A stretch of 32,000 nucleotides of DNA from Candidatus Saccharimonadota bacterium (GCF_003351905.1 NZ_CP022339.1:690001-722000), one strand, 5' to 3'. Counted from the first letter of the stretch, positions 3,236 through 19,248 are shown. A program made the numbers and translations. Notes: generated by a model from the sequence alone, not told the origin.

Positions 3236-4762
3236 ATGTCCCTTATGCTTAATCTTCCTTTTACTATGGTAGTAATATTTTTACTACTTACCTTAGCTAC
3301 TGGCATTTACTATAGTTATAATAAAAAATCAACCACCATTCAATAATATGCAATAGGAAATAAAACTTTTTCTACAACTACTTTAGTAGCTACGGTATTA
3401 GCTACAACTTATGGAGGTGGAACTTTAGTACGTGCTGTAGAACAGGTATATAGTAGTGGATTATACTGGGTCATTCTTATGATTTTAGCAGGACTTAATC
3501 TTTGGATCATTAGTCTAATGGCCATACGAATGGGCCCATTTATGGGACATTTATCCCTTCCAGAAACAATGGGTACCATATATGGACCATATGCCCGTAT
3601 TATTACAGGAATATCTTCTGTTTGTAGTGCTATAGCGGTTATTGCTATTCAAATCAGTGTTATATCAGTAACCATCAGTACTATCTTTCCATATCACTCA
3701 TATATTATTACGGTATTAGCTACTTTAATACTTATTTTCTATTCCACACTAGGTGGTATTCGTTCAGTTACATTCACTGATGTATTACAGTTTATAACAT
3801 TTACTATTATTATACCACTAGTGGCTTGGTTTATGTTTCTCAACACTGAAAAATCTATCTTTGAAATTATATACTTTCTCAAAGATCAAGAAAAGTTTCA
3901 GTTTAATAAGTTATTTCAGTGTAATACTAAGTTAATAAGTTTAATTTTTCTTTCACTTAGTTATTTAATAGGGTATACGAAAGAGCCTACCATTATGCAG
4001 AGGATCTATATGTCTTCAGGTCCTACTCAGGCTTACAATGTTTTTAAGATATCTACTATTTTCCATTACCTTATAAAAGTATTTATCATCTTAATAAGCC
4101 TATTTGTATTTGTAAAAGAACCAAATCTGCCAGTAAATAAAGTTTGGAATTATATACCAACTCATGTACCTCCTGTTTTTAACGGCTTTATTGCTATCAG
4201 CCTATTAGCCATGACAATGTCTACGGCTGATTCACATATAAATAATTCTGCAATCATAGCTAGTTACGATATTTTAGAGAAAATTATACCAAGGAAACTA
4301 CATCCTATTAATCATCTTAAACTAGTTAAATGGAGTAGCCTAATAATAGGTTTACTAGCTATGGTGTTAACTTTTTTTTGTAATAGCCTATTAACTCTCC
4401 TAAAGTACAGCTTAAATTTTTCTATACCTATAACTGTTGCTCCATTTGTATTAGCTGTTTTTGGTTTTCGCGGCACCTCCCGTACCGCTTTGATCGGTAT
4501 GGCTACAGGTGTATTAACTATTTTAGCCTGGAACAAATGGGTTGAGCCTTACATAGGAATAGATGGTTCTTTCATTTCTATGTTGGCCAATGGTTTAGCT
4601 ATGATGGCCGCTCACTATTTTCTAAAACAGCCAAAAGGTGCAGGTTGGGTGGGTCCAGATGATACGCTTAAACAAATTCAACAAGAAAGTTTCCGTAAGA
4701 AGGCAGAACGAGAAGAAAGGATTAAAAATTCTTGGATGAATAAAAAAAAACACTTTAGCTAA
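3236..4762 (+). pseudogene. Sodium:solute symporter family (SSF) transporter interrupted by one in-frame TAA (3344-3346)
   Basis: ATG 3236 is in the same frame as ORF 3479..4762. Translation gives MSLMLNLPFTMVVIFLLLTLATGIYYSYNKKSTTIQ*YAIGNKTFSTTTLVATVLATTYGGG..., which aligns co-linearly with the intact paralogue at 30013..31524 (...GRKATTFREYAVDNKRLST...). The stop sits where the paralogue has GAA (Glu). The SSF motif LGGIRSVTFTDVLQF is present. Confidence 0.7.
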
Positions 4763-4820: not shown

Positions 4821-6839
4821 TTGCTGACTTATTTTATAGCCTCTATTTCAGCTCATAGCTATTGGCTTATATTCCAAATTTTGTTAGGTGCTTGTTTTTT
4901 AGGGTATAGTACATTTCTATCAGACAAGATACAACCTATTCCGGGTTGGGTGGTTGGCCTATTTTTTGTCATAGGTCTAGCTTTTTGCCTTCCTATCAAT
5001 GTACTTTGGCACTGGTGGCACCGCACTAACCTTTTCTTAACCTTAGGCCTATCCTTAACGCATCTGTTGGTAACCTTGTTGGTACTACCTTTATATCTTG
5101 GTGTAAGTTTTGTAATGGCCACCCTGTTAATCGCCATATTCCTTAGTTCAATCTATTGTACAAATCCATTCGTTCTGGTGTTATCGTCATCCACTATTGC
5201 ATTGCTATTATTACTTTGTTTGGGCTTAGGCTTACTTATTTTTGGCATATTTGTTTACCTAAAATCCAAAACTCAGCGTTTCTATGACCAAATAACTTAC
5301 CTAAAGGGTAGAGAGGAGCTTAAGGAAGCACGCAAATTAAAATCATGCCTATATAACGCATCGCTGGTTCCATCTAATAGTGATACTTCCTCTAGTTCTA
5401 GAGGTTATGGATTTATTTTAAACCAAGTAGTTGGTAAGATTGAGGAATCTATCTCTTTCTTAGATAGTAATGCTCCCCTTTACAAGGAAGACTTCCAAAG
5501 TATTATCAATAAATTTTATGATTGGATTACCTATTTTAATAGAAAAGAAAGATATAAAAATCATACCCTACTGCAGCCTACTAAAATTATCTTCGATAAG
5601 CTGATTCGTAATGTGGAAGTGGCATTATCCCAAGAAATAGATAATCCGCCTAGAATATTGTTAGAAAAAATAAACGATTCTAGAGGAACCCTATGTTCCT
5701 ATATTGTATGCGATATGAATCAAATCGTCTATCTACTTGTTCAGGCTATTCTACGCGTTGGTAATCTAGAGCACGCTAGTACAAAAATTGTTCGTATCCA
5801 ACTGCATGCTACTTCTTTGCAATTTGCACAACCTGATCCTATTGATAACAGTTATCCTACTTGTATGGATTTTTTAGCTACTGCTTTGGTTATAAGTCAG
5901 TCTACTGCTTTTGCTGAGTGCCTTCCTAAGGTAAAGGAGGTCTATAATGATCTAATAGATAGTATGGGTCCTAAAGGTCAACAGGAAGCGCCTCCATCAA
6001 TAGATCTTCAGATGCAAACTATATCCACTATTATTGGGGCCCACTATGGATATTTGGAGGCTTCTACTGATCGTAAGCAACCTAGTATGCTACTGGTACT
6101 GCCTAATAATGTCACAGTCATTCGTGATAAGATGACTGCTAAACTGCCTATAGATTGTTTAACCTCACAGACCCCTGTTACACCTAAGGAACAAGCCAAT
6201 TCAATGATGGTATTAATGAAATTCCATGATTATGTCTGCAAAGTTTCTTATCAAGAAGACGCTATTGATATAAAGACCATTTCTGGTTTGCTTTTATTAT
6301 TACGCCAACATTTTGGCTTTAAACGGCATGCTTCAGGTCAACTGTTTTATATACGTGCGGTAGGGATTGCTGAATTAGTAACAGATTGGGTGTTTCATTC
6401 CCCTAAGGTGATTTATGCCGCTTTGCTTTATGAATTGGTACGTCATACCTGTTTGCCGCTTTCTTATATTAAAGCACATTATAATTTAGGGGTTTATGCT
6501 TTTGTATTGAATGTGGTTGGTATAGATAAACGGCAAGCCTTAGATCATCCTTCCTTATTGTATGTACAGAATCGTTTGAAGGAGGCGATCAAGGAAGATC
6601 ATGTGCAGCTCTCTGTTCTTTTTATTAAATTGGCCGAACGGCTCTATGACCTGCGTCATGCCTCAGGCTATATACATCTATCAGAAGTAGTGCATATGGC
6701 CCAAGAGACCTTAGCCATAGATGTGAAGATAGCCAATAGATACTTAGGTAGAGAGATAGGAGCCTCTTTAGCAAAGGCTGCTAAAGAGGCATTAGAGGTG
6801 TGTACAAATACAAATAAAGAAAAAAATAAAAGTAGTTAG
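4821..6839 (+). CDS. Polytopic membrane protein with a degenerate histidine-kinase-ATPase-like middle region and a degenerate RelA/SpoT-type HD C-terminal domain
   Basis: 672-aa ORF. The only start candidate ahead of the hydrophobic N-terminus is TTG 4821; the first ATG is codon 99. Residues 1-150 form about five hydrophobic helices. Residues ~485-650 align to the SpoT hydrolase domain (VLFIKLAERLYDLR vs SpoT VILIKLADRTHNMR; AALLYELVRHT vs AALLHDVIEDT). The product name is tentative. Confidence 0.6.
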   Translation: MLTYFIASISAHSYWLIFQILLGACFLGYSTFLSDKIQPIPGWVVGLFFVIGLAFCLPINVLWHWWHRTNLFLTLGLSLTHLLVTLLVLPLYLGVSFVMATLLIAIFLSSIYCTNPFVLVLSSSTIALLLLLCLGLGLLIFGIFVYLKSKTQRFYDQITYLKGREELKEARKLKSCLYNASLVPSNSDTSSSSRGYGFILNQVVGKIEESISFLDSNAPLYKEDFQSIINKFYDWITYFNRKERYKNHTLLQPTKIIFDKLIRNVEVALSQEIDNPPRILLEKINDSRGTLCSYIVCDMNQIVYLLVQAILRVGNLEHASTKIVRIQLHATSLQFAQPDPIDNSYPTCMDFLATALVISQSTAFAECLPKVKEVYNDLIDSMGPKGQQEAPPSIDLQMQTISTIIGAHYGYLEASTDRKQPSMLLVLPNNVTVIRDKMTAKLPIDCLTSQTPVTPKEQANSMMVLMKFHDYVCKVSYQEDAIDIKTISGLLLLLRQHFGFKRHASGQLFYIRAVGIAELVTDWVFHSPKVIYAALLYELVRHTCLPLSYIKAHYNLGVYAFVLNVVGIDKRQALDHPSLLYVQNRLKEAIKEDHVQLSVLFIKLAERLYDLRHASGYIHLSEVVHMAQETLAIDVKIANRYLGREIGASLAKAAKEALEVCTNTNKEKNKSS

Positions 6840-7068
6840 TTGAATCATTAGAGATATAAAATCTTGTGTAAAGGATACTAGGAACAATCATTTAGAAAGA
6901 CTAAATATGTATTATATCTGATGTTACTTTATCGCTTCTCTGATCCTTGATAAACATCAAACTCAAAATTTAACTATTTACCTGTTTTTAAAAAGTCTGG
7001 TACAACATAGCTATCTTTTAAAGATTTAACTCACACTTGAAGCAATGCCATCGATATATGTAGATGGG

Positions 7069-9546
7069 TTATCCACATAGATTTGCTTTTTTAGGTTCTA
7101 TAAAATCCATTAACACTTTGGCAGCTGCATCTATTTCTACTTTACTAGATTTTGCGTCAGCCTTTAATTGGATCCATGTTTTATAGGCTTGCTCAAAGGT
7201 TTCCATATCTTCAAAATCTAACCATAAAATATTGGTAAATATGTGGGCTGGGCCTTCCATAATCACCATTTCTTCTACTGCATGCCTAAACGAAGATTGT
7301 TGAAACCTGGCTGGCCATGAAGGGAAAACCATAGTCATGATAAATGAGTAGGGGTCTTGTTCTGTGGTTAATGTGTCTTCACTTCTAAGCAAGATATGTT
7401 CTATTAAGTGAAAGCCTTCACATGCTTGGTTTAGGGTTCTTAATAACTCTACACTTTGCTGGACCATAGCCTCTGCTTGCTCGATCTGCATAAGGGGTTC
7501 AGTTACCAGCTCAATGGTTTGCTTTTTGACTTTATCCACATATAGTAGAATAGTATAGGTGCCATTTGCTTTTTTGACAATATGGTAATGTTGTTCATTG
7601 ATGCCATAGGATATTACTAGAGACTGCATGTTTGCATATTTCCCTCTAAACATAAAAATATCATTATAGGCTTCCTGGTCGTTTTTACCTAAAAAAATAT
7701 CCAAATTATATTGCGTGGACTTTTTTTCTACATACATGCTATCCTTTACTATTTGGTGAAAAAGTTTTTTCTCTAAATTTTTAATACCTAAGTTACGGTA
7801 AATACGTCGCTTAAAACCAGATGGCACATGGTGGATCCAATTGTTCATCTCATTAACTGTTATATGAGCTGCCCGGTTTCTATTTTTACTGATATCAATG
7901 TAATCCTTTAAAAAAAGTGCTTTATTCGTGTTAAACTCGTCCAATTGTGTTTCTTCATTTTTAGGATAGAGGTGCAGTGAGTAGATGGTAAATCGTTCCG
8001 AAAAATAAGCCAATAAATGGTCTAACACCCTGGATCTTTTGTCTAAGCTTCGAATGTCGCTTTCTAATGTTCTATTGATGTAGGAAAAGTAGATTTGCCT
8101 GGCTGCATCACCCTGCTGCTGGCCGTTAGTAGGCCTATTCACTATTTCTTTTTTTACATCTAAATACTTTCTTTGTATCACAAATTCAAGGTCATTACCT
8201 GGGTCAGTCCCTTGCGTAGGTTGCTTAATAATGGTATCCATTCTTGGTACGTCTAAGGGCAAACGGCTACTAGGCTTGTTATACGCTTCGCTATAGATGG
8301 CCATGGTGTGTTTGATATTAGACAATTGCCCCAAATAATTGGCAAAAAGCTGGTCAAAAAACATTAAATAACTTTTTAACTGACTTGCTTTAGCCTGATT
8401 TTCAATTGTTTCAGATGGGCTGCATCCTTCGTCTCCTACGTTATAGAGTAGGGGAAAGTCTTGTTGTATCGAGACATGGTCTTCTAGGTTCCTATAATTT
8501 CCTTCTAATACAAAGACACTTTCTTCTTGTAGATAGGCTTTCGTTAAAGTACCCCTTCCTTTCATATCTTCAAGCATATCCACAACCTTCCCCCAATTTG
8601 TATTGATGGGTAGCCCATTATAATAGAGGACAATTTCACTTTGTGGAATATCAAGGACTAAAGACCGATCTGGTAAGATCGGTATCATTACGCTACTTGT
8701 TCTTGTATGTTCTTCATGAATAAAGAGTTCAAAGTTTAGCACATTTTTAATATTAGCCACTTTAGTAGCTTGCTCTAAGAGTTCAACTACGTAAATCCTA
8801 GATTTGTTTTTTAGATAAACTAATTCCTCTTCATCTATAAAACCTTGTGTTAAAAGTGGCCCTGTAAAGATTTGGTCTATGGTTCTACCTTTGTCTAGCA
8901 ATTGACTGATGCTGTAAAAAGGAACACGTGGTGAGAGAAACTCCTGAAAAGCAAATAATATCTGAGCAATAATGGTCTCTCCTTCTTCATAAGCCAAACA
9001 ATTTGCTACCTCAAAAGTACCTTTTACACTGATAGGTAGTGTTTCCATAGTTTGAATTAGGAAGAAGTCTTCACATAGATTCCTTTGTGCATATAATTTT
9101 TGCTGTACTAAATCTAACACCTCTTTTTCTTGTGGGGTGTGGCTGATCCGTTCTTCTACATCTATAAAAATCTTATACCCCCCTTTGATTTCTTTTGGCC
9201 CATCACTTAAAAAGATATTCGCATTTTTTACGCCTGGTACATCCAATACAATTTTTAAAAAATCCCATTGGGTTAATGGATTACAAGGAAGAATTTCTTC
9301 CGCTTTGTAAAAGGGTTGCTCATTGGGATGCGCTGTTGCATCAGGATCTTTCGCCCATATATCTTCTATATAGAAGTTGGTTCTATATTCTAGATCCATG
9401 ATGGCAAAAGAAAGTACTTCTAAAATGGTAATACCAGGGTCATGCTCCCCATAGTCTGTCCATTTCTTTCCTGCTAATTGGTGGATGTAGGCTATTCCCT
9501 GCTCCTTTAAAAAAGGATAATCAAGTTCTAATGGGGTGTTTTCCAT
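7069..9546 (-). CDS. Contractile-injection-system baseplate wedge protein (gp6 / gpJ / Afp11-like), 825 aa
   Basis: ATG at 9546. The N-terminal block KWTDYGEHDPGITILEVLSFAIMDLEYRTN matches, from my recall, the WTD.N.SDPG..L.E..A...D.L.YR motif of baseplate-J-like assembly proteins of phage-tail-like systems. It is the last gene of a vgrG-PAAR-gp25 string. I cannot assign its C-terminal ~400 aa. Confidence 0.6.
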   Translation of the reverse strand: MENTPLELDYPFLKEQGIAYIHQLAGKKWTDYGEHDPGITILEVLSFAIMDLEYRTNFYIEDIWAKDPDATAHPNEQPFYKAEEILPCNPLTQWDFLKIVLDVPGVKNANIFLSDGPKEIKGGYKIFIDVEERISHTPQEKEVLDLVQQKLYAQRNLCEDFFLIQTMETLPISVKGTFEVANCLAYEEGETIIAQILFAFQEFLSPRVPFYSISQLLDKGRTIDQIFTGPLLTQGFIDEEELVYLKNKSRIYVVELLEQATKVANIKNVLNFELFIHEEHTRTSSVMIPILPDRSLVLDIPQSEIVLYYNGLPINTNWGKVVDMLEDMKGRGTLTKAYLQEESVFVLEGNYRNLEDHVSIQQDFPLLYNVGDEGCSPSETIENQAKASQLKSYLMFFDQLFANYLGQLSNIKHTMAIYSEAYNKPSSRLPLDVPRMDTIIKQPTQGTDPGNDLEFVIQRKYLDVKKEIVNRPTNGQQQGDAARQIYFSYINRTLESDIRSLDKRSRVLDHLLAYFSERFTIYSLHLYPKNEETQLDEFNTNKALFLKDYIDISKNRNRAAHITVNEMNNWIHHVPSGFKRRIYRNLGIKNLEKKLFHQIVKDSMYVEKKSTQYNLDIFLGKNDQEAYNDIFMFRGKYANMQSLVISYGINEQHYHIVKKANGTYTILLYVDKVKKQTIELVTEPLMQIEQAEAMVQQSVELLRTLNQACEGFHLIEHILLRSEDTLTTEQDPYSFIMTMVFPSWPARFQQSSFRHAVEEMVIMEGPAHIFTNILWLDFEDMETFEQAYKTWIQLKADAKSSKVEIDAAAKVLMDFIEPKKANLCG

Positions 9547-9699
9547 AGTCTATATCTATAAATAATGATGATCTTGAGGTTATAATGAATAAATTATAAA
9601 TAGAGAGATGGTGACCTTGAGGCTATAGCTATCTGAGCATGTTGCGTTTTATATATCTATTGTTCCTAATTATAATGGTTGGTCACTATTGCTAAGGTG

Positions 9700-10104
9700 T
9701 TATTTGTTAAAAATAGGATGGTAGCCATATTGAATCGTTTCTTCTATATCTAATTTTTTAACCTTATAACTTACATTAATATCGATGGCCCCTTCTCCAT
9801 CGTTTGGCGTGGTCAGTTGGACATCTAGGGCTTCTACTCTGGGTTCATGTTCTGTAATGGTTTGCTTGATGTTATTCACCATAAAAGTTTCTAGGTTCAG
9901 ATCTAATTGTTGAAAGGCAAGGGGTGTCAGATCACAACCATATTGCTGTTCTACAATGCGTTCACCCACTCTAGTACGCATTAAGATGATTAAACTTTCT
10001 CGGATATCGCTCAATCCGTTGACCATTTCTACTGTGCTGCTATGGTGATTAAAAGAAGGTGGAAACTTCCATCCTATACCCAAGAAATTGTTGTCATCTT
10101 CCAT
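9700..10104 (-). CDS. Baseplate wedge protein, gp25/GPW family (Afp9 / TssE-like)
   Basis: 134 aa. The pattern GIGWKFPPSF...SDIRESLIILMRTRVGERIVEQQYGCDLTPLAFQ is the characteristic gp25 pattern (G.G..FP ... T..GER...P.fG). Size and position beside PAAR and VgrG fit. Confidence 0.8.
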   Translation of the reverse strand: MEDDNNFLGIGWKFPPSFNHHSSTVEMVNGLSDIRESLIILMRTRVGERIVEQQYGCDLTPLAFQQLDLNLETFMVNNIKQTITEHEPRVEALDVQLTTPNDGEGAIDINVSYKVKKLDIEETIQYGYHPIFNK

Positions 10105-10137
10105 ATGTGCATTTTCTATTGGTTGATTAGTATACTT

Positions 10138-10455
10138 TTACCCACTAATTATTACGGTAGCGCACCCTTGTACTATCATGCCACCCATACTGGTTGTATC
10201 GCCTAAGCGTGCCGCTGGTTTTTTATCTATTAGAACGTTGGAAGATCCTTTTACAATGGTATCCTGATGGGGTGGGGGGCCACTACAAATCAACTTGTCT
10301 CCCACTCTTGCTGCAGGAAGGTTATTTATAAAAACATTAGGACAACCCAATATAATTATAATTATTCCTCCATTCACATGAGGTGCAGGTGGAGTACCTG
10401 GCGTTACCATAGGGCACATATGCTTATTTGATAATACAGCTGCAGGTTGTTTCAT
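10138..10455 (-). CDS. PAAR-repeat spike-tip protein (Afp10-like)
   Basis: 105 aa with explicit motifs LPAARVGD and KPAARLGD, plus a degenerate first copy QPAAVLSN. It has the Gly/Pro/Cys-rich small cone-protein composition. Confidence 0.85.
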   Translation of the reverse strand: MKQPAAVLSNKHMCPMVTPGTPPAPHVNGGIIIIILGCPNVFINNLPAARVGDKLICSGPPPHQDTIVKGSSNVLIDKKPAARLGDTTSMGGMIVQGCATVIISG

Positions 10456-10512
10456 AGTGTGCTCTATTAATTATATATGATGTAAGTATTAAGAATCTAC
10501 AAAATAATTCTA

Positions 10513-12306
10513 TTAATTAATTAATACGGTTGTACCTTTAATAATCGTAACCATATCAGATTTGACTTCTGTACTGGCATTGCCATTTAAAACAGCCTTC
10601 ATAGAAGCTTTTGCATTGATATTCAGGCTCTTCAAGTTTATATTTTGTGTACCATTGACCACCACATCTTTGCCTGACTTTATGGTGATACTAGCCCTTG
10701 CATTCAAGTTAATATCTTTACTGCTGGTTAGGTTGATGCCATCGTTGCTTAACACTACTTTGTTGCCATTCTGGTCTACCATTTCAATGCTTTTTTTCTT
10801 ATCTGATATTTGTATCAGCCCTCCTTTGGGTGTTTTAATAATGATTTCAGGACCTTCTTTATCATCATGGAAACTAAACTCTAATTTTTCTTTAGAAATA
10901 AATGATTTAAAAGAATTTTTAGGGTCTACTGTTTTAGGTGGTACATGCTTGTTACTATGCAGGGAGCCTAGAATAATAGGAAATCGAATGTCGTCGTTTA
11001 CGAAGCCTACTACCACTTCATCTTCCAATTCCGGGATAAAAAAAGCACCTGATGCTTGTGTAGCATAAAATGAAGCTAGACGACACCAAATGCCCTCTTT
11101 GGGTTTATCTTGTACTAAAGGCAAATGTACCAAAATCCGATTCTGTTTTTGAGGATCTTGTGTAATCTGTTTGACGATACCAAGCTGTAACCCATATATA
11201 GGGGGCATCATACCTGCTGCTGGCAGTGCACCGATGTCACGGTATTGGTACATATAGCGTTGTGCCTCTAACCCTAAGGTTAATATGGTTTGCCAGTTGC
11301 CATCTGATATAATATGTTGCACACCCGATACATACGCATTGCCTGCAAAGTGACTGGCTCCTTTTTCAATGGTGATCAGTCCATCATGGCGCAATGCAGC
11401 ATTGCCTGAAACGGTAACGCGTCCTTTGATTTTAGCGATTCTACTTCGGTTTAGTAAGCCAGTGGCCAACGTTTTGATTTCCGAAGGATCTAGTACCCCA
11501 CCGTGGGATATGGCCACGCTACCTGGTTGGGCAGCAGCAGTTAATTTTTTATAGGAAAGGTCTCCCATAGACTGTTCTCCTGGATCATTGGCTTGTTCAA
11601 TAATTTTATTTTGCTTATTACTATCCCAGGAGAGGGCAGTAACAGCTGACCATGGGTTTTTTGCATCTATTTCAGCATCGAAGTCAATAAAGTCGGCTCC
11701 ATAGGTATAGGTAAAAGCACCTTTGCCAGTTGCTTTTGGTTTTTTGACTGTAAGGGTTCCATCATTTACTACTACGATTTGTCCATTTGCCTCGGCGCGA
11801 ATATTGAGGAAGTCCCAATCTGATATTTCGTGCTGTGCAATATTTTCATGTACAATAGTGGTCGCTTCAATTTTATGGCTTAGGCCACTATAACTACCCA
11901 AAATCTTTTTTAAAAGATCACTATCCTTACTTTTTACAAAATGTTTCGTTTTAGGCGCAAGAGTGGTTTTATAGGCCGCATCTCTACAAGTTACAGTCAA
12001 GGTAGACCATCCCGTTGACCTAGACTGAATGGCTAATTTGGCCACTACGCCCTCGAATAACTGCTCTAATCCATCTCCATGACCGGCGTGTATGGTAACC
12101 GTAGTACCAATGGTAAAGGTTTTATCATTGGCTATAGAAAAAGTTTGTGACTGCATGCTGCCATCATGCAAAACTATTTTTGCATAAGGGATTTTGTTGA
12201 TTCTTTTATCCACCATGATGGATTGTATAGGGTAATTGGCATCTAGGTTTTTAGAACCTACCTTGATGGCGTACTTAATAAAATCACCTGAAAAAGCTGT
12301 TGCCAT
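10513..12306 (-). CDS. vgrG: VgrG-like spike protein (gp27-gp5 fusion type, Afp8-like)
   Basis: There is a gp5 OB-fold/gpV block GIWCRLASFYATQASGAFFIPELEDEVVVGFVNDDIRFPIILGSLHS. C-terminal beta-helix-like repeats follow (NGNKVVLSNDGINLTSSKDINLNARASITIKSGKDVVVNGTQNINLKSLNINAKASM...). The N-terminus MATAFSGDFIKYAIKVGSKNLDANYPIQSIMVDKRINKIPYAKIVLHDGS is typical of the gp27/gpD domain. I placed the start at ATG 12306 (597 aa); the ORF track reaches 12387 through an implausible 27-aa leader. Confidence 0.8.
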   Translation of the reverse strand: MATAFSGDFIKYAIKVGSKNLDANYPIQSIMVDKRINKIPYAKIVLHDGSMQSQTFSIANDKTFTIGTTVTIHAGHGDGLEQLFEGVVAKLAIQSRSTGWSTLTVTCRDAAYKTTLAPKTKHFVKSKDSDLLKKILGSYSGLSHKIEATTIVHENIAQHEISDWDFLNIRAEANGQIVVVNDGTLTVKKPKATGKGAFTYTYGADFIDFDAEIDAKNPWSAVTALSWDSNKQNKIIEQANDPGEQSMGDLSYKKLTAAAQPGSVAISHGGVLDPSEIKTLATGLLNRSRIAKIKGRVTVSGNAALRHDGLITIEKGASHFAGNAYVSGVQHIISDGNWQTILTLGLEAQRYMYQYRDIGALPAAGMMPPIYGLQLGIVKQITQDPQKQNRILVHLPLVQDKPKEGIWCRLASFYATQASGAFFIPELEDEVVVGFVNDDIRFPIILGSLHSNKHVPPKTVDPKNSFKSFISKEKLEFSFHDDKEGPEIIIKTPKGGLIQISDKKKSIEMVDQNGNKVVLSNDGINLTSSKDINLNARASITIKSGKDVVVNGTQNINLKSLNINAKASMKAVLNGNASTEVKSDMVTIIKGTTVLIN

Positions 12307-12682
12307 GGAGATAAAGGAATAAAGCAAAGAAAAATATGGTTTAGATTGTGCCCACTTAAAATAAAAATATACCACTGGTGGTTCCAATCATTTCTACACC
12401 TTGTATATGTCTACTGACTTATTGCTCAGATAACCTAGCCGAATAGATAAGGTAGGATCAATAAAACAAAATAGACTGTACCAGATTAGTTCTGTGACCA
12501 AAGTTTAAAGGTGTTAGATCCCTCAACAGTAGCAATAAAATAAATAAAGGATAAAATTCCAAAAAGATGGACCAATAAACGTTGGTTTGGAATGTAAAGC
12601 ACAGATGTATAAGTGCTCATGTAAACGCTTTGTATTTTATTTGCTGCTGCAAGATTTATCCCTTTCAAGCCCACTGGCTCTG

Positions 12683-14086
12683 CTAACAGGGCACGTGGCC
12701 TGGGGTACGTGGAAATGGAATGACATCACGTATGTTTTCCATTCCTGTTACAAACAATACAAATCGGTCCAGACCTAAACCAAATCCGCTATGGGGTATC
12801 GTTCCAAAGCGTCTGGTGTCCAGATACCAGTTCAAATTTTGAATACCGGTACGTTGCATTACGGCTGTCAAGTAATCCATGCGTTCTTCTCTTTGGGAGC
12901 CTCCAATAATTTCGCCTACGCCAGGGAAAAGTATATCCATAGCGGCTACCGTTTTTCCATCATCATTTTGGCGCATATAAAAGGCCTTGATAGCTTTTGG
13001 ATAATCGGTTACTACTACAGGTCTTTTAAAATGATGCTCTACTAAATAACGCTCATGTTCCGATTGGAGGTCCATGCCCCAACCGGTAATAGGATAGACA
13101 AATTGACTATGCTTATTGGATGCCGTTAAAATAGCAATGGCTTCTGTATAGGTAATATGGGCGAAAGGTTGTTCTAGTACGAACTGCAACCGTTCCAATA
13201 GTGTCATGGTTGCCTCTTCTGCATTGCTATGGCTCAGCAAGCGTTGGTTTAAAAAATCAAGCTCGTCTGGGCATGTTTTAAGTACATAGTCTAATAAAAA
13301 TTTTAACAACGCTTCTGCAAGCGCAATCGTATCGTCCAGCGTATGAAAGGCTACCTCTGGTTCAACCATCCAGAACTCTGCTAGGTGTCTGGTTGTATTC
13401 GAATTTTCTGCTCTGAAAGTGGGGCCAAAAGTATAGACCGCTCCTAGTCCCATGGCAGCTGCTTCTGCCGCAAGCTGGCCAGAAACGGTTAAGTTGGTAG
13501 CGGTATGAAAAAAGTCTGCGCTATAATCCATACTACCATCTGGATGTTTAGGTGGTGTCTCTAAGGTGGTTACACGGAACAATTCCCCTGCACCTTCTGC
13601 ATCTGCTGCAGTAATAATAGGCGTATGGAGGTAAAAGAAACCACGTTCGTGAAAAAAATGGTGAATGGCATAACTAATGGCATGCCTGATGCGAAACACG
13701 GCACCAAAAGTATTGGTGCGAAATCGAAGGTGTGCCCATGTACGTAGAAATTCCAGTGAATGCGCCTTGGGTTGCAATGGGTAGTCTAGCGCATTACCCA
13801 GTAGGGTTAGGTGATGACCATCTAATTCTACCGATTGGTTGGCACCTTTTGAAGCTACCAAACGGCCAGAGACCGCAACACTAGACCCTGTAACCAGCTG
13901 GCTTAGCAGCTCTTTGGGGAGTTCAGAAGGGGACATTACTACCTGTAAACTTTGCTGACAAGAACCATCATTAAGCGTAAGAAACACAACCTGTTTATTG
14001 ATCCGTTTGGTGCGGATCCAGCCCTTGGCTTCAACTTGTGCACCTACTGTGCCAAATTGTAAAAGTTCTTTAATTTTGGTATGCAA
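12683..14086 (-). CDS. asnS: Asparagine--tRNA ligase
   Basis: 467 aa. It has an N-terminal OB anticodon-binding region (VEAKGWIRTKR) and class II motifs including FRAENSNTTRHLAEFWMVEPEVAF and GFGLGLDRFV. The start codon at 14086 is TTG. Confidence 0.9.
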   Translation of the reverse strand: MHTKIKELLQFGTVGAQVEAKGWIRTKRINKQVVFLTLNDGSCQQSLQVVMSPSELPKELLSQLVTGSSVAVSGRLVASKGANQSVELDGHHLTLLGNALDYPLQPKAHSLEFLRTWAHLRFRTNTFGAVFRIRHAISYAIHHFFHERGFFYLHTPIITAADAEGAGELFRVTTLETPPKHPDGSMDYSADFFHTATNLTVSGQLAAEAAAMGLGAVYTFGPTFRAENSNTTRHLAEFWMVEPEVAFHTLDDTIALAEALLKFLLDYVLKTCPDELDFLNQRLLSHSNAEEATMTLLERLQFVLEQPFAHITYTEAIAILTASNKHSQFVYPITGWGMDLQSEHERYLVEHHFKRPVVVTDYPKAIKAFYMRQNDDGKTVAAMDILFPGVGEIIGGSQREERMDYLTAVMQRTGIQNLNWYLDTRRFGTIPHSGFGLGLDRFVLFVTGMENIRDVIPFPRTPGHVPC

Positions 14087-14186: not shown

Positions 14187-15599
14187 ATGCAAAAGTTACA
14201 ATTAGAGCAAAAGTTAACGCAGCGGTTATCTGGACAACAAATTCAATTTATTAAGCTATTGCAAGTGCCTACTATTGCACTCAATGACTACATCTCAAAA
14301 GAGGTCACCGCTAACCCTTTGCTAGATGAAGAAAGAGAGGGAGAAGATCAAGATGCAGCAGCTACTGTATCAGAATCATTGGTTCAGGATCTTCCTGACT
14401 ATCGTTCAACGGATGTAAAGCTATACAAAACACAAACTACTCGGGACCTTTGGACCCCAGCTGTCGTTTCACTTCAAGAAAAGTTAAAAGAGCAACTGCA
14501 TTTACTCCATTTAAATCCAGTAGGCTATATCATAGGCGAGCATCTGATTGGTAGTTTGGATCAAGATGGTTACCTACAATGTGATCTAGAAATTGTTGTA
14601 CAAGATCTTCATGTAATCCATTATTTAGAACTTTCTCTACAAGAGGTAGCGGCAGTATTAACTGCTATTCAGCATTTCGATCCACCTGGTATTGCAGCTA
14701 GGAATCTGCAGGAATGTTTGTGCATACAGCTGCAAGGACAAGACCAGCAAGATCCAATTATTCAATTGGCACAGCGTGTGGTCAGTAGTTGTTTTGAAGC
14801 CCTTACTAAGAAGCATTATGAGACCATAGTGAAAAAATTAGGTGTGACAGATAGGCCGCTCTTGAAAGAGGCCCTAGCCCATATTGCTCGATTGAATCCC
14901 AGACCAGGGCGCCATCATAATGGAATAGATGATACCAGTGATTACCTTACACCAGACTTTATAATCGTAGAAAATCAAGGGAAACTTACTGCTGAATTGA
15001 TCCATTATCCGGTATACAAGCCGCGCTTTAATAAAAAATATCTTGCGTTGTTAGAAAGTTATGAGCAAAACAAACAACAGGATGTAGCAAGCCAAGAGAT
15101 GATTGCTTTTTTGAAAAAAAAACTAGAGCATGCTAAGTGGTTTATGGAGGCGCTTGGTCAACGGAGCCAAACCCTTTTAAAGGCCATGAACGCAATTTTA
15201 GCATTGCAATATGCTTTCTTTTTAGAAGGGGAAGAAACAGATCGATTAAAGCCAATGGTTTTGCAGCATGTAGCTGATAAGGTTGGTATGGATGCTTCTA
15301 CTATTTCAAGGATTGTTAACCAAAAATCAGTCCAAGGCAAATTTGGTGTGTATCCACTAAAATTTTTCTTTTCTGAAGGCATCAGTAAAGCTACCGGAGA
15401 GGATATCAGCAATAAAGTGGTAAAAAATAGAATTTTAGAATTAATTGATAGTGAAGATAAACAAAACCCTTATTCAGATGAACAGATCGTAGCTATATTG
15501 ATAGGTGAGGGCTATAATGTGGCACGCCGTACCGTAACGAAGTATAGAAAACAGTTGGATCTACCTGTTGCTAGGTTGCGGAAGGCATTGCTAACATGA
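14187..15599 (+). CDS. rpoN: RNA polymerase sigma-54 factor
   Basis: 470 aa. The N-terminal Gln/Leu-rich region I is MQKLQLEQKLTQRLSGQQIQFIKLLQ. The C-terminal RpoN box is ARRTVTKYR. Confidence 0.9.
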   Translation: MQKLQLEQKLTQRLSGQQIQFIKLLQVPTIALNDYISKEVTANPLLDEEREGEDQDAAATVSESLVQDLPDYRSTDVKLYKTQTTRDLWTPAVVSLQEKLKEQLHLLHLNPVGYIIGEHLIGSLDQDGYLQCDLEIVVQDLHVIHYLELSLQEVAAVLTAIQHFDPPGIAARNLQECLCIQLQGQDQQDPIIQLAQRVVSSCFEALTKKHYETIVKKLGVTDRPLLKEALAHIARLNPRPGRHHNGIDDTSDYLTPDFIIVENQGKLTAELIHYPVYKPRFNKKYLALLESYEQNKQQDVASQEMIAFLKKKLEHAKWFMEALGQRSQTLLKAMNAILALQYAFFLEGEETDRLKPMVLQHVADKVGMDASTISRIVNQKSVQGKFGVYPLKFFFSEGISKATGEDISNKVVKNRILELIDSEDKQNPYSDEQIVAILIGEGYNVARRTVTKYRKQLDLPVARLRKALLT

Positions 15600-17528: not shown

Positions 17529-18062
17529 TTACCAGTTATCTATGGACTTGCTACAAATATCATCCACTAGTTTATTAAAAATTTCTTTAATCAATTCAGG
17601 TTCTTTTTCTAATTTATTTTCAGTTGAAAGCATATCAGCGCTAGCTGAAAATTGTTTTTTCTTAAATGAAGATTCCTCATCAATAAGATTCAAGTAAGCA
17701 ACTTCTATAGTTATGGTTAAACGCTGTACTTCTTTTAGGTTATTACCTTGCTCATTTTTTGTACTGAAGGCTGTAGTATATGAAAATGATTTAATAATGC
17801 CTTCGTATTGTATGTTACCATCTTTTTCTTCTCGGGTTAGCGATGTGGTACGTGATATTTTGGTTATAAGTGCTTCAGTAAGTTTTTGGGGCATATCTAT
17901 TGGACCCTCTGTCACCTCTGTATAAAACGCCTGAACAGAAAAGGTCTTTATATCGCGAGAAAGCGAAGTGTCTAAGAAAGTAAAAAGACCACAACTGTGT
18001 AACCCTAGTAAACTAAAAACAAGGTATAGACTATTGGTTAAAATCGGACGCTTCAATTTCAT
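17529..18062 (-). CDS. lptE: LptE-like LPS-assembly lipoprotein
   Basis: 177 aa. The lipobox is LLGLHSCG and the C-terminus is IFNKLVDDICSKSIDNW. It occupies the conserved Bacteroidota position between the sigma-54 activator and secG. It overlaps the upstream gene by 32 nt. Confidence 0.6.
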   Translation of the reverse strand: MKLKRPILTNSLYLVFSLLGLHSCGLFTFLDTSLSRDIKTFSVQAFYTEVTEGPIDMPQKLTEALITKISRTTSLTREEKDGNIQYEGIIKSFSYTTAFSTKNEQGNNLKEVQRLTITIEVAYLNLIDEESSFKKKQFSASADMLSTENKLEKEPELIKEIFNKLVDDICSKSIDNW

Positions 18063-19248
18063 ATTGTTTAATTTTTCGATAAAGTGTTCTTTCAGAAATC
18101 CCTAAATCATCCGCTGCATTTTTACGGTTCCCATGGTTTTTTTGCAGCGACCTACGAATTAATACTTGTTCTTGAGCTTCAATAGAAAGGTTCTCTGTTG
18201 TATAGGACATGTCATGTAGGTTCGCTTCTTTAAAGGATTGTGTGGTATCTAGAAAATGAATCTGCTTGTTGTCTGCATCACTATAGGCACCGAGTTGCGC
18301 TTGTTCCTTTATAATCGGACTTTTCCCAGACTCTATAAAATTAAACATTAATGCTTTTAGTTCTGCGATATCTCTTTTTAAATCAAAGAGGATAGGATAT
18401 ATATATTCTTGCATGCCATGATCCTGCCATTTCTTATAAAGCACTGGTAACGTATGGCTTTGTGCTTTCGGTAAATATTGCTCTAGTACTTTGGGTGTAA
18501 TCATAACTACTTTTTCAAGTAGTGCCATTTGCTCAACAATATTTTTTAATTGTCGGATGTTCCCAGGAAATGCATAAGTGCGCAAAATATCTTTTGAATC
18601 TGAACTGATTTCTAGGGGTTTAACGCGGTATTTAGCAGCAAAGTCACTAGAGAATTTATGAAACAACTGGATAATATCTACGCCTCGTTCACGTAGGGGG
18701 GGGATATGAATGGGTACTGTATTGAGCCTGTAATACAAATCTTCTCGGAATTTTCCTTGTTTAATGGCATAGAGTAAGTCTACATGCGTAGCTGCTACTA
18801 CACGCACTTTGGTTTTTTGTACGTTAGAGCCACCTACTTTTAGATATTCTCCATATTCTAACACACGCAAAAGTCTAGTTTGTGTCCCCAAGGGCATTTC
18901 ACCTATTTCATCTAGAAAGATGGTTCCACCATTGGCTTCTTCAAAGTAGCCCTTTCGGCTTTCTAAAGCACCCGTAAAGGCGCCTTTTTCGTGACCAAAA
19001 AGTTCAGCGTCTATGGTTCCTTCTGGAATGGCCCCACAGTTAATAGCTATAAAATTACCATGTCGGTAGGGGCTTAGTGCATGGATAATTTTGGAAAAAG
19101 ATTCCTTTCCCGTGCCACTTTCACCTGTAATTAAAACGGATAGATCGGTGGCAGCGACCTGCATCGCTACCTCAATAGCTCGATTCAACAATGGCGCATT
19201 GCCAATAATGTTAAACCGTTGTTTGATGTATTGAAGATCTTCTTTCAT
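18031..19248 (-). CDS. Sigma-54-dependent transcriptional activator (AAA+ EBP with Fis-type HTH, no receiver or sensor domain)
   Basis: Walker A is GESGTGKE and the sigma-54 contact loop is GAFTGA (HEKGAFTGA). The C-terminal HTH is AADDLGISERTLYRKIKQY. The protein starts directly with the AAA+ domain. Confidence 0.9.
   Translation of the reverse strand: MKEDLQYIKQRFNIIGNAPLLNRAIEVAMQVAATDLSVLITGESGTGKESFSKIIHALSPYRHGNFIAINCGAIPEGTIDAELFGHEKGAFTGALESRKGYFEEANGGTIFLDEIGEMPLGTQTRLLRVLEYGEYLKVGGSNVQKTKVRVVAATHVDLLYAIKQGKFREDLYYRLNTVPIHIPPLRERGVDIIQLFHKFSSDFAAKYRVKPLEISSDSKDILRTYAFPGNIRQLKNIVEQMALLEKVVMITPKVLEQYLPKAQSHTLPVLYKKWQDHGMQEYIYPILFDLKRDIAELKALMFNFIESGKSPIIKEQAQLGAYSDADNKQIHFLDTTQSFKEANLHDMSYTTENLSIEAQEQVLIRRSLQKNHGNRKNAADDLGISERTLYRKIKQYEIEASDFNQ

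What the first reader, a model, noticed from the sequence alone, without database searches (positions are those of the whole stretch)
7069..12306. Orphan spike-plus-baseplate module of a phage-tail-like contractile injection system (Afp / T6SS-iv class) set among housekeeping genes
Seen in the sequence: four co-directional, tightly spaced minus-strand genes.
- A VgrG-like spike with gp5 OB block GIWCRLASFYATQASGAFFIPELEDEVVVGFVNDDIRFPIILGSL plus a C-terminal beta-helix.
- A PAAR tip (LPAARVGD, KPAARLGD).
- A gp25-like wedge (GIGWKFPP...RTRVGERIVEQQYGCDL).
- An 825-aa gp6/gpJ-like wedge (WTDYGEHDPGITILEVLSFAIMDLEYR).
Nothing in the 32 kb resembles a sheath, inner tube, tape measure, tube cap, LysM/Afp7, gp7/Afp12-like wedge, fibre or AAA+ ATPase. 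The neighbours are asnS (same strand, directly upstream) and a convergent membrane-protein gene.
Established knowledge: Afp, PVC, MAC and the Amoebophilus T6SS-iv are normally encoded as one contiguous 15-25 kb cluster. Afp-like genes are a hallmark of Amoebophilaceae endosymbionts.
Inference: this is a physically separated hub sub-assembly locus. It could complement a sheath/tube locus elsewhere, supply an alternative spike for different cargo, or be a relic. Its regulation and stoichiometric coupling to the rest of the machine would be unexplained.
Basis: partly seen in the sequence, partly recalled or inferred. Interest (0 to 1): 0.85.

Follow-up and report, generated by a model that had tools for sequence, protein, structure and literature searches.

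The report
Known split injection-system locus in Cardinium
These four genes encode the spike, its tip and two baseplate parts of the phage-tail-like injection system of the insect symbiont Cardinium, and their separation from the sheath and tube genes has been described in the literature since 2012, so the finding is real but ordinary.

Summary
The window comes from the Cardinium endosymbiont of Sogatella furcifera (cSfur). The four minus-strand genes are real and intact:
- VgrG/Cis8, 10513-12306
- PAAR, 10138-10455
- gp25/Cis9, 9700-10104
- an 825-aa wedge protein, 7069-9546

It has no Baseplate_J domain, and its solved relatives are all Cis12/Afp12/Pvc12/Alg12. The gp6/Afp11-like gene is the one encoded elsewhere.

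The block is not an orphan or a relic.
- It is orthologous, in the same gene order, to Aasi_1080-1083 of the Amoebophilus T6SSiv cluster.
- It is under strong purifying selection (dN/dS 0.03-0.1 for three of the genes).
- A sheath gene lies on the same cSfur chromosome.
- In two complete Cardinium chromosomes the sheath/tube block lies at least 289 kb and 476 kb from this block.

The split is published. Penz et al. 2012 report 16 Afp-like genes in five regions, with CAHE_0760-0763 as this same block. Brown 2018 and Siozios 2019 extend the comparison. Mann 2017 found all 15 genes transcribed in strain cEper1.

The one small addition is a conserved, promoter-like element of about 55 nt upstream of vgrG. 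It moves with the block even though the neighbouring genes differ between strains.

Verdict: already known, low interest.

The parts
10513..12306 (-). vgrG / Cis8 (Afp8-like) central spike: gp27-like hub, gp5 OB domain and C-terminal beta-helix
   Evidence: Pfam Phage_base_V 1.6e-19 and Phage_GPD 4.4e-06. NCBIfam TIGR01646 1.3e-41, above cut-off. Full-length matches to All3320 (4.9e-122), SalCis VgrG (1.1e-116), Afp8 (2.6e-37) and Pvc8 (9.3e-31). 44% identical to the Amoebophilus VgrG. The ATG at 12306 is supported by the N-termini of homologues. The mechanical ORF extends to a TTG at 12387.
10138..10455 (-). PAAR (Cis10-like) spike tip
   Evidence: Pfam PAAR_motif 9.2e-20. 60% identical to the Amoebophilus PAAR. 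The alignment keeps both PAAR motifs and the His/Cys columns. This copy is more diverged than in other Cardinium: it has a 2-aa insertion and dN/dS 0.35 against the Nabis strain.
9700..10104 (-). gp25 / Cis9 (Afp9, TssE-like) inner baseplate wedge protein
   Evidence: Pfam GPW_gp25 8.1e-16. TssE model 4.6e-06, below its cut-off. 95% identical to the Nabis-strain orthologue, dN/dS 0.03.
7069..9546 (-). Cis12 / Afp12-like baseplate wedge protein (T4 gp7 position), not gp6/Afp11
   Evidence: No Pfam or NCBIfam hit. Single-sequence PDB hits are all Cis12-type: All3315 5e-81, Algo12 8e-74, SalCis12 2e-36, Pvc12 2e-18, Afp12 5e-16. Profile A1 gives 8.5e-244 to 5e-49. NCBI names the identical protein 'Putative afp12-like protein [Cardinium endosymbiont of Sogatella furcifera]'. 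It is the orthologue of CAHE_0760/Aasi_1083 (PMC3486910 Table S5).
12508..12562 (-). Conserved element upstream of vgrG (TTGGAATTTTATCCTTTATTTATTTTATTGCT...TCTAACA); candidate promoter of the four-gene unit (inference)
   Evidence: The 19-mer core occurs once in the window, against 0.01 expected. The same element sits 84-256 nt upstream of vgrG in four other Cardinium-type loci whose upstream genes differ: L025, L026 and L028 match exactly, and L029 has one change. The pattern TTG-N17-TAnTTTAT has 7 hits in 510 kb, 4 of them at this position. It is absent upstream of the sheath block and from the Amoebophilus Afp7-vgrG spacers.

Best explanation
This is the spike-and-wedge block of the Cardinium T6SSiv, the Afp-like, phage-tail-derived contractile injection system of the Amoebophilaceae.

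Proposed roles of the four products, inferred from the solved homologous machines (Afp, PVC, AlgoCIS, the Anabaena tCIS):
- A VgrG trimer forms the central hub and spike.
- The PAAR protein caps and sharpens the spike.
- gp25/Cis9 and Cis12 are two of the wedge subunits. Together with the gp6-like Cis11, which is encoded elsewhere, they build the hexagonal baseplate around the spike.

The tube and sheath, encoded in a separate eight-gene block of the same chromosome, then polymerise on this baseplate. Sheath contraction drives the tube and spike out of the bacterium into the host cell.

The ancestral contiguous cluster, still intact in Amoebophilus, was broken between the Afp7-like gene and vgrG in the Cardinium lineage during genome rearrangement. 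The four genes have stayed together as a unit, probably an operon with its own promoter.

Shown here: gene identities, orthology, the break point, purifying selection, and a sheath gene on the same chromosome. Inferred: the assembly roles, operon status and promoter.
For: Organism and annotation:
- The identical protein is annotated in cSfur on a 1,103,593-bp contig.

Family assignments:
-.

Orthology and the break point:
- Amoebophilus contigs L001 and L030 carry the sheath, the tube, DUF5908, the Afp7-like gene, VgrG, PAAR, gp25 and Cis12, followed by a further large gene, all contiguously; L001 also shows the cap gene upstream and identifies the last gene as the tape measure.
- Proteins of that cluster hit the window only at the last four genes before the tape measure, in the same order, at 44-60% identity.
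- Cardinium sheath loci L006-L012 stop after the Afp7-like gene and have no vgrG.

Separation in complete chromosomes:
- Nabis-strain OZ239769: sheath at about 88-89.5 kb, spike block at about 952-957.6 kb. That is at least 289 kb apart on a 1.158-Mb circle.
- Tipula-strain OZ026476: sheath at about 1,057.5-1,059 kb, spike block at about 160.5-165.8 kb. That is at least 476 kb apart.

The block stays together while its neighbours change:
- It is kept intact with different neighbours in five further Cardinium-type loci.

Constraint and expression:
- dN/dS is 0.03-0.10 for vgrG, gp25 and cis12 and 0.06-0.35 for PAAR.
- The cSfur sheath protein AXI24300.1 lies on the same 1,103,593-bp contig.

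Literature:
- 16 Afp-like genes in five regions, with CAHE_0763/0762/0761/0760 = VgrG/PAAR/gp25/Afp12-like (PMC3486910, text and Table S5).
- Blocks broken into up to six in Cardinium, with a relA/spoT-type neighbour (PMC6232779).
- Afp-like clusters compared in seven Amoebophilaceae genomes (PMC6387759).
- All 15 genes transcribed at moderate to high level in cEper1 (PMC5698495).
- All sequenced Cardinium have T6SSiv homologues (PMC12342168).
Against: - No direct data exist for cSfur itself: no transcript, protein or structure.
- Only the sheath was shown here to be on the cSfur chromosome. The presence of the tube, Cis11, tape measure, cap and ATPase in cSfur rests on the literature and on relatives.
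- The distance between the two blocks in cSfur could not be measured, because cSfur genes are not in the position index.
- The cSfur PAAR is unusually diverged. This is compatible with function but unexplained.
- Operon and promoter status are inference. The generic sigma-70 scan found nothing above chance.
Confidence: 0.93

Rival explanations
1. The block is a decaying relic: a leftover fragment of a contractile injection system that no longer contributes to any machine.
For: It is detached from the sheath and tube genes and sits among housekeeping genes in a reduced, rearranged genome. A neighbouring symporter paralogue shows an in-frame stop, so gene decay does occur nearby. The PAAR gene is more diverged in this strain.
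Against: All four ORFs are full length and align end to end with their homologues. dN/dS is 0.03-0.10 for three of the genes. The block is conserved in every Cardinium-type lineage examined, down to 56% identity. The sheath is on the same chromosome. The orthologues are transcribed in cEper1 (PMC5698495).
Confidence: 0.03
2. The block is an additional, alternative spike/hub module that supplies a second VgrG-PAAR for a different cargo, alongside a complete cluster elsewhere.
For: Canonical T6SS genomes often carry orphan vgrG-PAAR islands. The cSfur PAAR is diverged.
Against: The Cardinium sheath/tube loci end after the Afp7-like gene, with no vgrG, PAAR, gp25 or cis12 in the 10-kb flanks. This block is therefore the only such copy found, not an extra one. 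Only one cSfur Afp12-like protein was returned. The literature counts 15-16 single-copy genes, with duplication only in strain cPpe (PMC6232779, PMC6387759). No effector-like gene is attached to the block.
Confidence: 0.03
3. The block is a fragment of an unrelated prophage tail or a recent horizontal acquisition, not part of the lineage's own secretion system.
For: The gene families are shared with contractile phage tails.
Against: GC content is like the surroundings. No other phage genes lie in the window. The block is orthologous, in the same order, with the Amoebophilus T6SSiv cluster, and identity to these homologues falls from 86% in the closest Cardinium strain examined to 44% in Amoebophilus.
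Confidence: 0.01

Closest known systems
Cardinium hertigii cEper1 Afp-like genes CAHE_0763-CAHE_0760 (Penz et al. 2012, PMC3486910)
   Same: The same four genes in the same order (VgrG, PAAR, gp25, Afp12-like), detached from the sheath/tube block CAHE_0456-0463. They are one of five published regions. The window's Cis12-type protein is 72-78% identical to several proteins named C. hertigii.
   Different: A different strain (cSfur) and different flanking genes: asnS upstream here. Nothing differs functionally.
Amoebophilus asiaticus T6SSiv, Aasi_1072-1083 (Bock et al. 2017, as cited in PMC8831229 and PMC12342168)
   Same: Orthologous proteins at 44-60% identity and the same internal gene order. 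It is a phage-tail-like contractile system; from my own recollection of Bock et al. 2017 (not held in the library), it is anchored inside the cell.
   Different: In Amoebophilus the four genes follow directly after the Afp7-like gene in one cluster with the sheath and tube. In some Amoebophilus contigs the tape measure follows directly. In Cardinium the link is broken.
Extracellular CIS: Serratia Afp, Photorhabdus PVC, AlgoCIS, Anabaena tCIS, Salmonella CIS (PDB 6RAO/6RBK, 6J0M/6J0N, 7AEB/7AEF, 7B5H, 9RCE)
   Same: VgrG/Cis8 and Cis12 match the solved chains of these machines at E values from 5e-16 to 5e-122. gp25 and PAAR belong to the same Pfam families.
   Different: Those systems are encoded as contiguous clusters, with Cis11 placed between Cis10 and Cis12. 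Here Cis11 is elsewhere. Many distant relatives of this Cis12 carry a YegP (PF07411) domain in the precomputed annotation; none of the Cardinium or Amoebophilus homologues is listed with one, and Pfam found no domain in the window protein.
Canonical T6SS orphan vgrG-PAAR islands
   Same: A vgrG-PAAR pair located away from the sheath genes.
   Different: Those islands are extra copies linked to effector, immunity and adaptor genes. This block is the only copy found, it includes two wedge genes, and it carries no effector. The TssE and T6SS-PAAR equivalog models score below their cut-offs.

Membership tests
Amoebophilaceae T6SSiv / Afp-like contractile injection system | VgrG/Cis8 spike with gp27-like hub, gp5 OB fold and C-terminal beta-helix | tested here: met
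   Phage_base_V 1.6e-19 and TIGR01646 1.3e-41, above cut-off. Full-length alignment to solved Cis8 chains.
Amoebophilaceae T6SSiv / Afp-like contractile injection system | PAAR tip and gp25-like wedge protein | tested here: met
   PAAR_motif 9.2e-20 and GPW_gp25 8.1e-16, both above Pfam's gathering scores.
Amoebophilaceae T6SSiv / Afp-like contractile injection system | Cis12/Afp12-like wedge protein | tested here: met
   PDB hits are exclusively Cis12-type chains, 5e-81 to 5e-16 with the single sequence and 8.5e-244 to 5e-49 with the profile.
Amoebophilaceae T6SSiv / Afp-like contractile injection system | Orthology and conserved gene order with Aasi_1080-1083 / CAHE_0763-0760 | tested here: met
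   tblastn of the Amoebophilus cluster proteins gives 44-60% identity in the same order. See also PMC3486910 Table S5.
Amoebophilaceae T6SSiv / Afp-like contractile injection system | Sheath gene in the same genome | tested here: met
   AXI24300.1 'Phage tail sheath protein [Cardinium endosymbiont of Sogatella furcifera]' lies on the 1,103,593-bp contig.
Amoebophilaceae T6SSiv / Afp-like contractile injection system | Tube, Afp7-like, cap, Cis11 (Baseplate_J), tape measure and AAA+ ATPase in the same genome | not tested
   Not searched in cSfur itself. In six other Cardinium genomes the cap, tube and Afp7-like genes flank the sheath. The literature reports the full set for Cardinium genomes including cSfur (PMC6387759, PMC12342168).
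Amoebophilaceae T6SSiv / Afp-like contractile injection system | Assembly into membrane-anchored contractile arrays that fire into the host | not testable with these tools
   This needs cryo-ET or functional assays. Only electron-micrograph 'microfilament-like' arrays are reported for Cardinium (PMC3486910, PMC12342168).
   There is no Pfam hit at E <= 0.01. No chain named as a Cis11/Afp11/Pvc11 protein was returned from the PDB. Only a weak profile hit (E 0.0089) of the N-terminal 50 residues to one J-like chain was found. The N-terminal WTDY..HDPG motif is a shared feature, not evidence of orthology.
Canonical T6SS (subtypes i-iii) | Equivalog-level TssE and T6SS PAAR matches; TssB/C, TssJ/L/M and ClpV nearby | tested here: not met
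   TssE scores 26.3 bits against a cut-off of 53.2. T6SS_PAAR_dom scores 60.3 against 124. No Tss genes lie in the window.

The most novel reading that the evidence does not exclude
The four-gene block is an autonomous transcription unit. Its own promoter-like element of about 55 nt is conserved across Cardinium lineages and has moved with the block through repeated genome rearrangements. It is unrelated to the conserved element upstream of the sheath/tube block. If so, spike and baseplate-hub supply would be regulated separately from sheath and tube supply. That could set the number of injection machines started per cell.
Probability: 0.4. Interest if true: 0.25.

Novelty: already known. Interest (0 to 1): 0.1.

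Why it matters
The T6SSiv is thought to be Cardinium's main route for delivering effectors into host cells. It may include the factors behind reproductive manipulation, and it probably forms the tube arrays that give the genus its name. So the genes matter biologically.

The dispersed layout, this exact four-gene block and its expression are already documented. Re-finding them in strain cSfur adds nothing new.

The practical gains here are two. The fourth gene's identity is corrected from gp6-like to Afp12-like. A candidate promoter element is noted that could be used to study how the dispersed loci are coordinated.

Tried and rejected
- The generic sigma-70 promoter and intrinsic-terminator scan of 6700-12800 found no more sites than shuffled sequence. 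It is not informative for a Bacteroidota genome.
- I looked for a cis-element shared by the spike block and the sheath block that could explain co-regulation. None was found. The vgrG-upstream element is absent from all the sheath loci, which carry a different conserved upstream element.
- I checked the vgrG upstream region by eye for a sigma-54 promoter, because rpoN and a sigma-54 activator lie nearby. There was no convincing -24/-12 match, and the rpoN adjacency is not conserved in other strains. No pattern search was run for this.
- I tried to place both loci on the cSfur chromosome. cSfur proteins are not in the gene-position index, and cSfur is not a species representative in the genome collection. 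Distances were therefore measured in the Nabis and Tipula strains instead.
- Bock et al. 2017 is not held in the library, so it is cited only through papers that describe it.
- The cSfur genome paper does not discuss the Afp-like system.
- Structure prediction was judged unnecessary, because the sequence matches to solved Cis8 and Cis12 structures are already decisive.

Full report
**Source of the window**

The 825-aa ORF at 7069-9546(-) is 100% identical to a protein that NCBI names 'Putative afp12-like protein [Cardinium endosymbiont of Sogatella furcifera]'. It lies on a contig of 1,103,593 bp. The window is therefore part of the cSfur chromosome. GC content is even, at about 35-45%, across the block and its neighbours.

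**Checking the observation**

The ORF list shows four co-directional minus-strand ORFs:
- 10513-12387 (624 aa from a TTG; 597 aa from the ATG at 12306)
- 10138-10455 (105 aa)
- 9700-10104 (134 aa)
- 7069-9546 (825 aa)

Gaps between them are 57, 33 and 153 nt.

Three of the family assignments hold.
- The first ORF matches Pfam Phage_base_V (1.6e-19) with a weak Phage_GPD hit. NCBIfam TIGR01646 VgrG scores 1.3e-41, above its cut-off.
- The second ORF is PAAR_motif (9.2e-20).
- The third ORF is GPW_gp25 (8.1e-16).
- The VgrG aligns over its whole length to solved CIS spikes: All3320 4.9e-122, SalCis VgrG 1.1e-116, Afp8 2.6e-37, Pvc8 9.3e-31.
- Homologue N-termini (MATPIPG..., MSSTLG...) support the ATG at 12306 as the start.

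**The fourth gene is mislabelled**

- The 825-aa protein has no Pfam or NCBIfam hit at all, so it has no Baseplate_J domain.
- Against all PDB sequences it hits only Cis12-type chains: All3315 5.1e-81, Algo12 8e-74, Alg12 2.1e-73, SalCis12 2.3e-36, Pvc12 1.8e-18 and Afp12 5.2e-16.
- A 36-sequence family profile raises these to 8.5e-244, 3.4e-206, 1.7e-89, 1.4e-58 and 5.3e-49.
- No chain named as a Cis11, Afp11 or Pvc11 protein was returned.

So this is the Afp12-like wedge protein, which occupies the T4 gp7 position in solved CIS baseplates (my own knowledge of those structures). The gp6/Afp11-like gene is the one missing from the window.

**The rest of the window**

- A tblastn of 13 proteins from a contiguous Amoebophilus cluster against the window hits only these four genes. 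The query set comprised the cap, sheath, tube, DUF5908, Afp7-like, VgrG, PAAR, gp25, Cis12 and tape-measure proteins plus three unknowns.
- Pfam on the other ORFs gives housekeeping families:
  - PMT_2
  - DAO
  - two SSF symporters
  - an HD_4 protein
  - asnS
  - rpoN
  - SecG
  - LptE
  - a sigma-54 activator
  - RmuC
  - a rhomboid
  - a small Holin-X-family (Phage_holin_3_6) protein
- Five further ORFs were identified only by eye from their translations, as probable miaB, acs, fusA and ribosomal-protein genes.
- The sigma-54 activator is an AAA+ protein but unrelated to the Afp15-type ATPase.

**What the block is**

- Amoebophilus contig L001 carries, contiguously: Pvc16_N cap, unknown, sheath, two unknowns, gp19 tube, DUF5908, CIS_tube (Afp7-like), VgrG, PAAR, gp25, the Cis12 homologue and CIS_TMP.
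- L030, whose Cis12 is 45% identical to the window's, has the same contiguous order from the tube onward.
- The window holds exactly the VgrG-to-Cis12 part, in the same order, at 44-60% identity.
- Sheath loci from six Cardinium genomes (L006-L012) run from the cap to the Afp7-like gene and stop. There is no vgrG in the following 7 kb or more.
- The break point is therefore between the Afp7-like gene and vgrG.

**Separation in complete chromosomes**

| Strain (record) | Sheath position | Spike block position | Minimum separation |
|---|---|---|---|
| Nabis limbatus (OZ239769, 1,158,289 bp) | about 88.0-89.5 kb | about 952.4-957.6 kb | 289 kb |
| Tipula unca (OZ026476, 1,374,024 bp) | about 1,057.5-1,059.0 kb | about 160.6-165.8 kb | 476 kb |

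**The block keeps together while its neighbours change**

| Locus | Upstream | Downstream |
|---|---|---|
| cSfur (window) | asnS | convergent HD_4 gene |
| Nabis strain | ATP-synthase operon and a PqqF-like gene | PMT_2 |
| Tipula strain | AAA genes | transposase copies on both sides of the block |
| cCpun-like contig | VapE-like gene | ExbBD |
| Deeper lineage, 56% identical (L028) | EamA | an ABC transporter |
| A C. hertigii contig (L027) | contig starts at the Cis12 gene | HD_4 gene, as in cSfur |

**Not a relic, not an orphan**

- Nei-Gojobori dN/dS between cSfur and the Nabis and Tipula strains is 0.08-0.09 for vgrG, 0.03-0.05 for gp25 and 0.10 for cis12. dS is 0.7-1.8.
- A sheath query returned a 90% cluster whose members include AXI24300.1, 'Phage tail sheath protein [Cardinium endosymbiont of Sogatella furcifera]', on the same 1,103,593-bp contig.
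- In cEper1, transcripts of all 15 Afp-like genes were found at moderate to high level (PMC5698495).
- Only one cSfur Afp12-like protein was returned, and no second spike set lies in the flanks of the sheath blocks examined. This argues against an 'alternative spike'.

**Already in the literature**

- Penz et al. [quoted passage not shown] Their Table S5 lists:
  - CAHE_0763 (VgrG/Afp8), CAHE_0762 (PAAR), CAHE_0761 (gp25/Afp9) and CAHE_0760 (Afp12-like) as homologues of Aasi_1080-1083
  - the sheath/tube block as CAHE_0456-0463
  - Afp11 (Baseplate_J) as CAHE_0037, next to the Afp13-like CAHE_0036
  - the ATPase as CAHE_0409
  - Afp14 as CAHE_0118
- The same table shows that even A. asiaticus encodes Aasi_0232, 0556/0557 and 1806 away from the main cluster.
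- Brown et al. [quoted passage not shown] They also note a flanking relA/spoT-type gene, which is probably the HD_4 neighbour seen here.
- Siozios et al. 2019 (PMC6387759) compare the Afp-like clusters of seven Amoebophilaceae genomes. The strains the paper names, cSfur among them, add up to seven.
- A 2025 review states that all sequenced Cardinium carry T6SSiv homologues and that the arrays are probably the columns the genus is named for (PMC12342168).

**Mechanism**

This is inferred from the solved homologues and from the T6SSiv literature.
- A VgrG trimer capped by PAAR forms the hub and spike.
- gp25/Cis9 and Cis12, together with Cis11 encoded elsewhere, form the six wedges around it.
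- The tube, initiated by the Afp7-like adaptor, and the sheath polymerise on this baseplate.
- Contraction expels the tube and spike into the host.

None of these assembly steps was tested here.

**One small addition**

The 377-nt spacer between asnS and vgrG contains an element of about 55 nt at window 12562-12508(-): TTGGAATTTTATCCTTTATTTATTTTATTGCT...TCTAACA.
- It is conserved upstream of vgrG in the Nabis, Tipula, cCpun-like and L028 loci, although the upstream genes differ and the rest of the spacers do not align.
- The 19-mer core occurs once in the window, against 0.01 expected.
- The derived pattern TTG-N17-TAnTTTAT has 7 hits in 510 kb of Cardinium-type sequence, 4 of them at this position.
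- It lies 84-256 nt from the ATG.
- It is absent from the Amoebophilus Afp7-vgrG spacers and from the sheath-block upstream regions, which have their own different conserved element.

I read it as the block's own promoter. That is inference only.

**Verdict**

The genes are real, and three of the four labels are right. The 'separate hub locus' description is correct, but it is a published, lineage-wide feature of Cardinium. The orphan, relic and alternative-spike readings are not supported. Novelty: already known. Interest: low.

Noticed in passing
window 12508-12562 (-); also L025 7206, L026 6920, L028 7198, L029 about 2893: A conserved element of about 55 nt lies upstream of vgrG and travels with the four-gene block across Cardinium lineages whose neighbours differ. 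It is a candidate promoter. It differs from the conserved element upstream of the sheath block (TTTTGAGTAAAAA..AATCTAAAAATGTAATATA in L006-L012).
   Followed up: partly
window 3236-4762 (+): A sodium:solute symporter paralogue. Its homology to the 513-aa paralogue at 29983-31524 continues upstream of the 427-aa ORF (3479-4762), across an in-frame TAA at 3344. The gene is either N-terminally truncated or pseudogenised, or the sequence has an error.
   Followed up: partly
window 10138-10455 (-): The cSfur PAAR is more diverged than its neighbours. It is 74% identical to the Nabis strain, whereas the Nabis and Tipula PAARs are 91% identical to each other. It has a 2-residue Ile-Ile insertion. dN/dS is 0.35, against 0.03-0.10 for the other three genes. 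The PAAR motifs and the His/Cys columns are kept.
   Followed up: partly
window 14187-15599 (+) and 18031-19248 (-): rpoN (sigma-54) and a sigma-54-dependent AAA+ activator lie within 6 kb of the block. The adjacency is not seen in the Nabis, Tipula, cCpun-like or L028 loci, and reading the vgrG upstream region by eye showed no convincing -24/-12 promoter. It is probably coincidental.
   Followed up: partly
window 4821-6839 (+): A 672-aa protein, convergent with the Afp12-like gene, with a visibly hydrophobic N-terminal part and a C-terminal HD_4 (RelA/SpoT-type) domain. The same neighbour follows the Afp12-like gene in a C. hertigii contig (L027), and a relA/spoT-type neighbour is mentioned in PMC6232779. 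The C. hertigii copy is only 219 aa.
   Followed up: no
P0051: A 916-aa protein from a eukaryote protein set (EukProt), 44% identical to the Afp12-like protein and carrying a gp25 domain. It is probably a symbiont contig inside a eukaryote assembly, with gp25 and cis12 called as one gene.
   Followed up: no
window 29565-29939 (+): A small 124-aa membrane protein matching Pfam Phage_holin_3_6 (2.9e-08). It lies between a rhomboid gene and a symporter gene, with no phage context.
   Followed up: no
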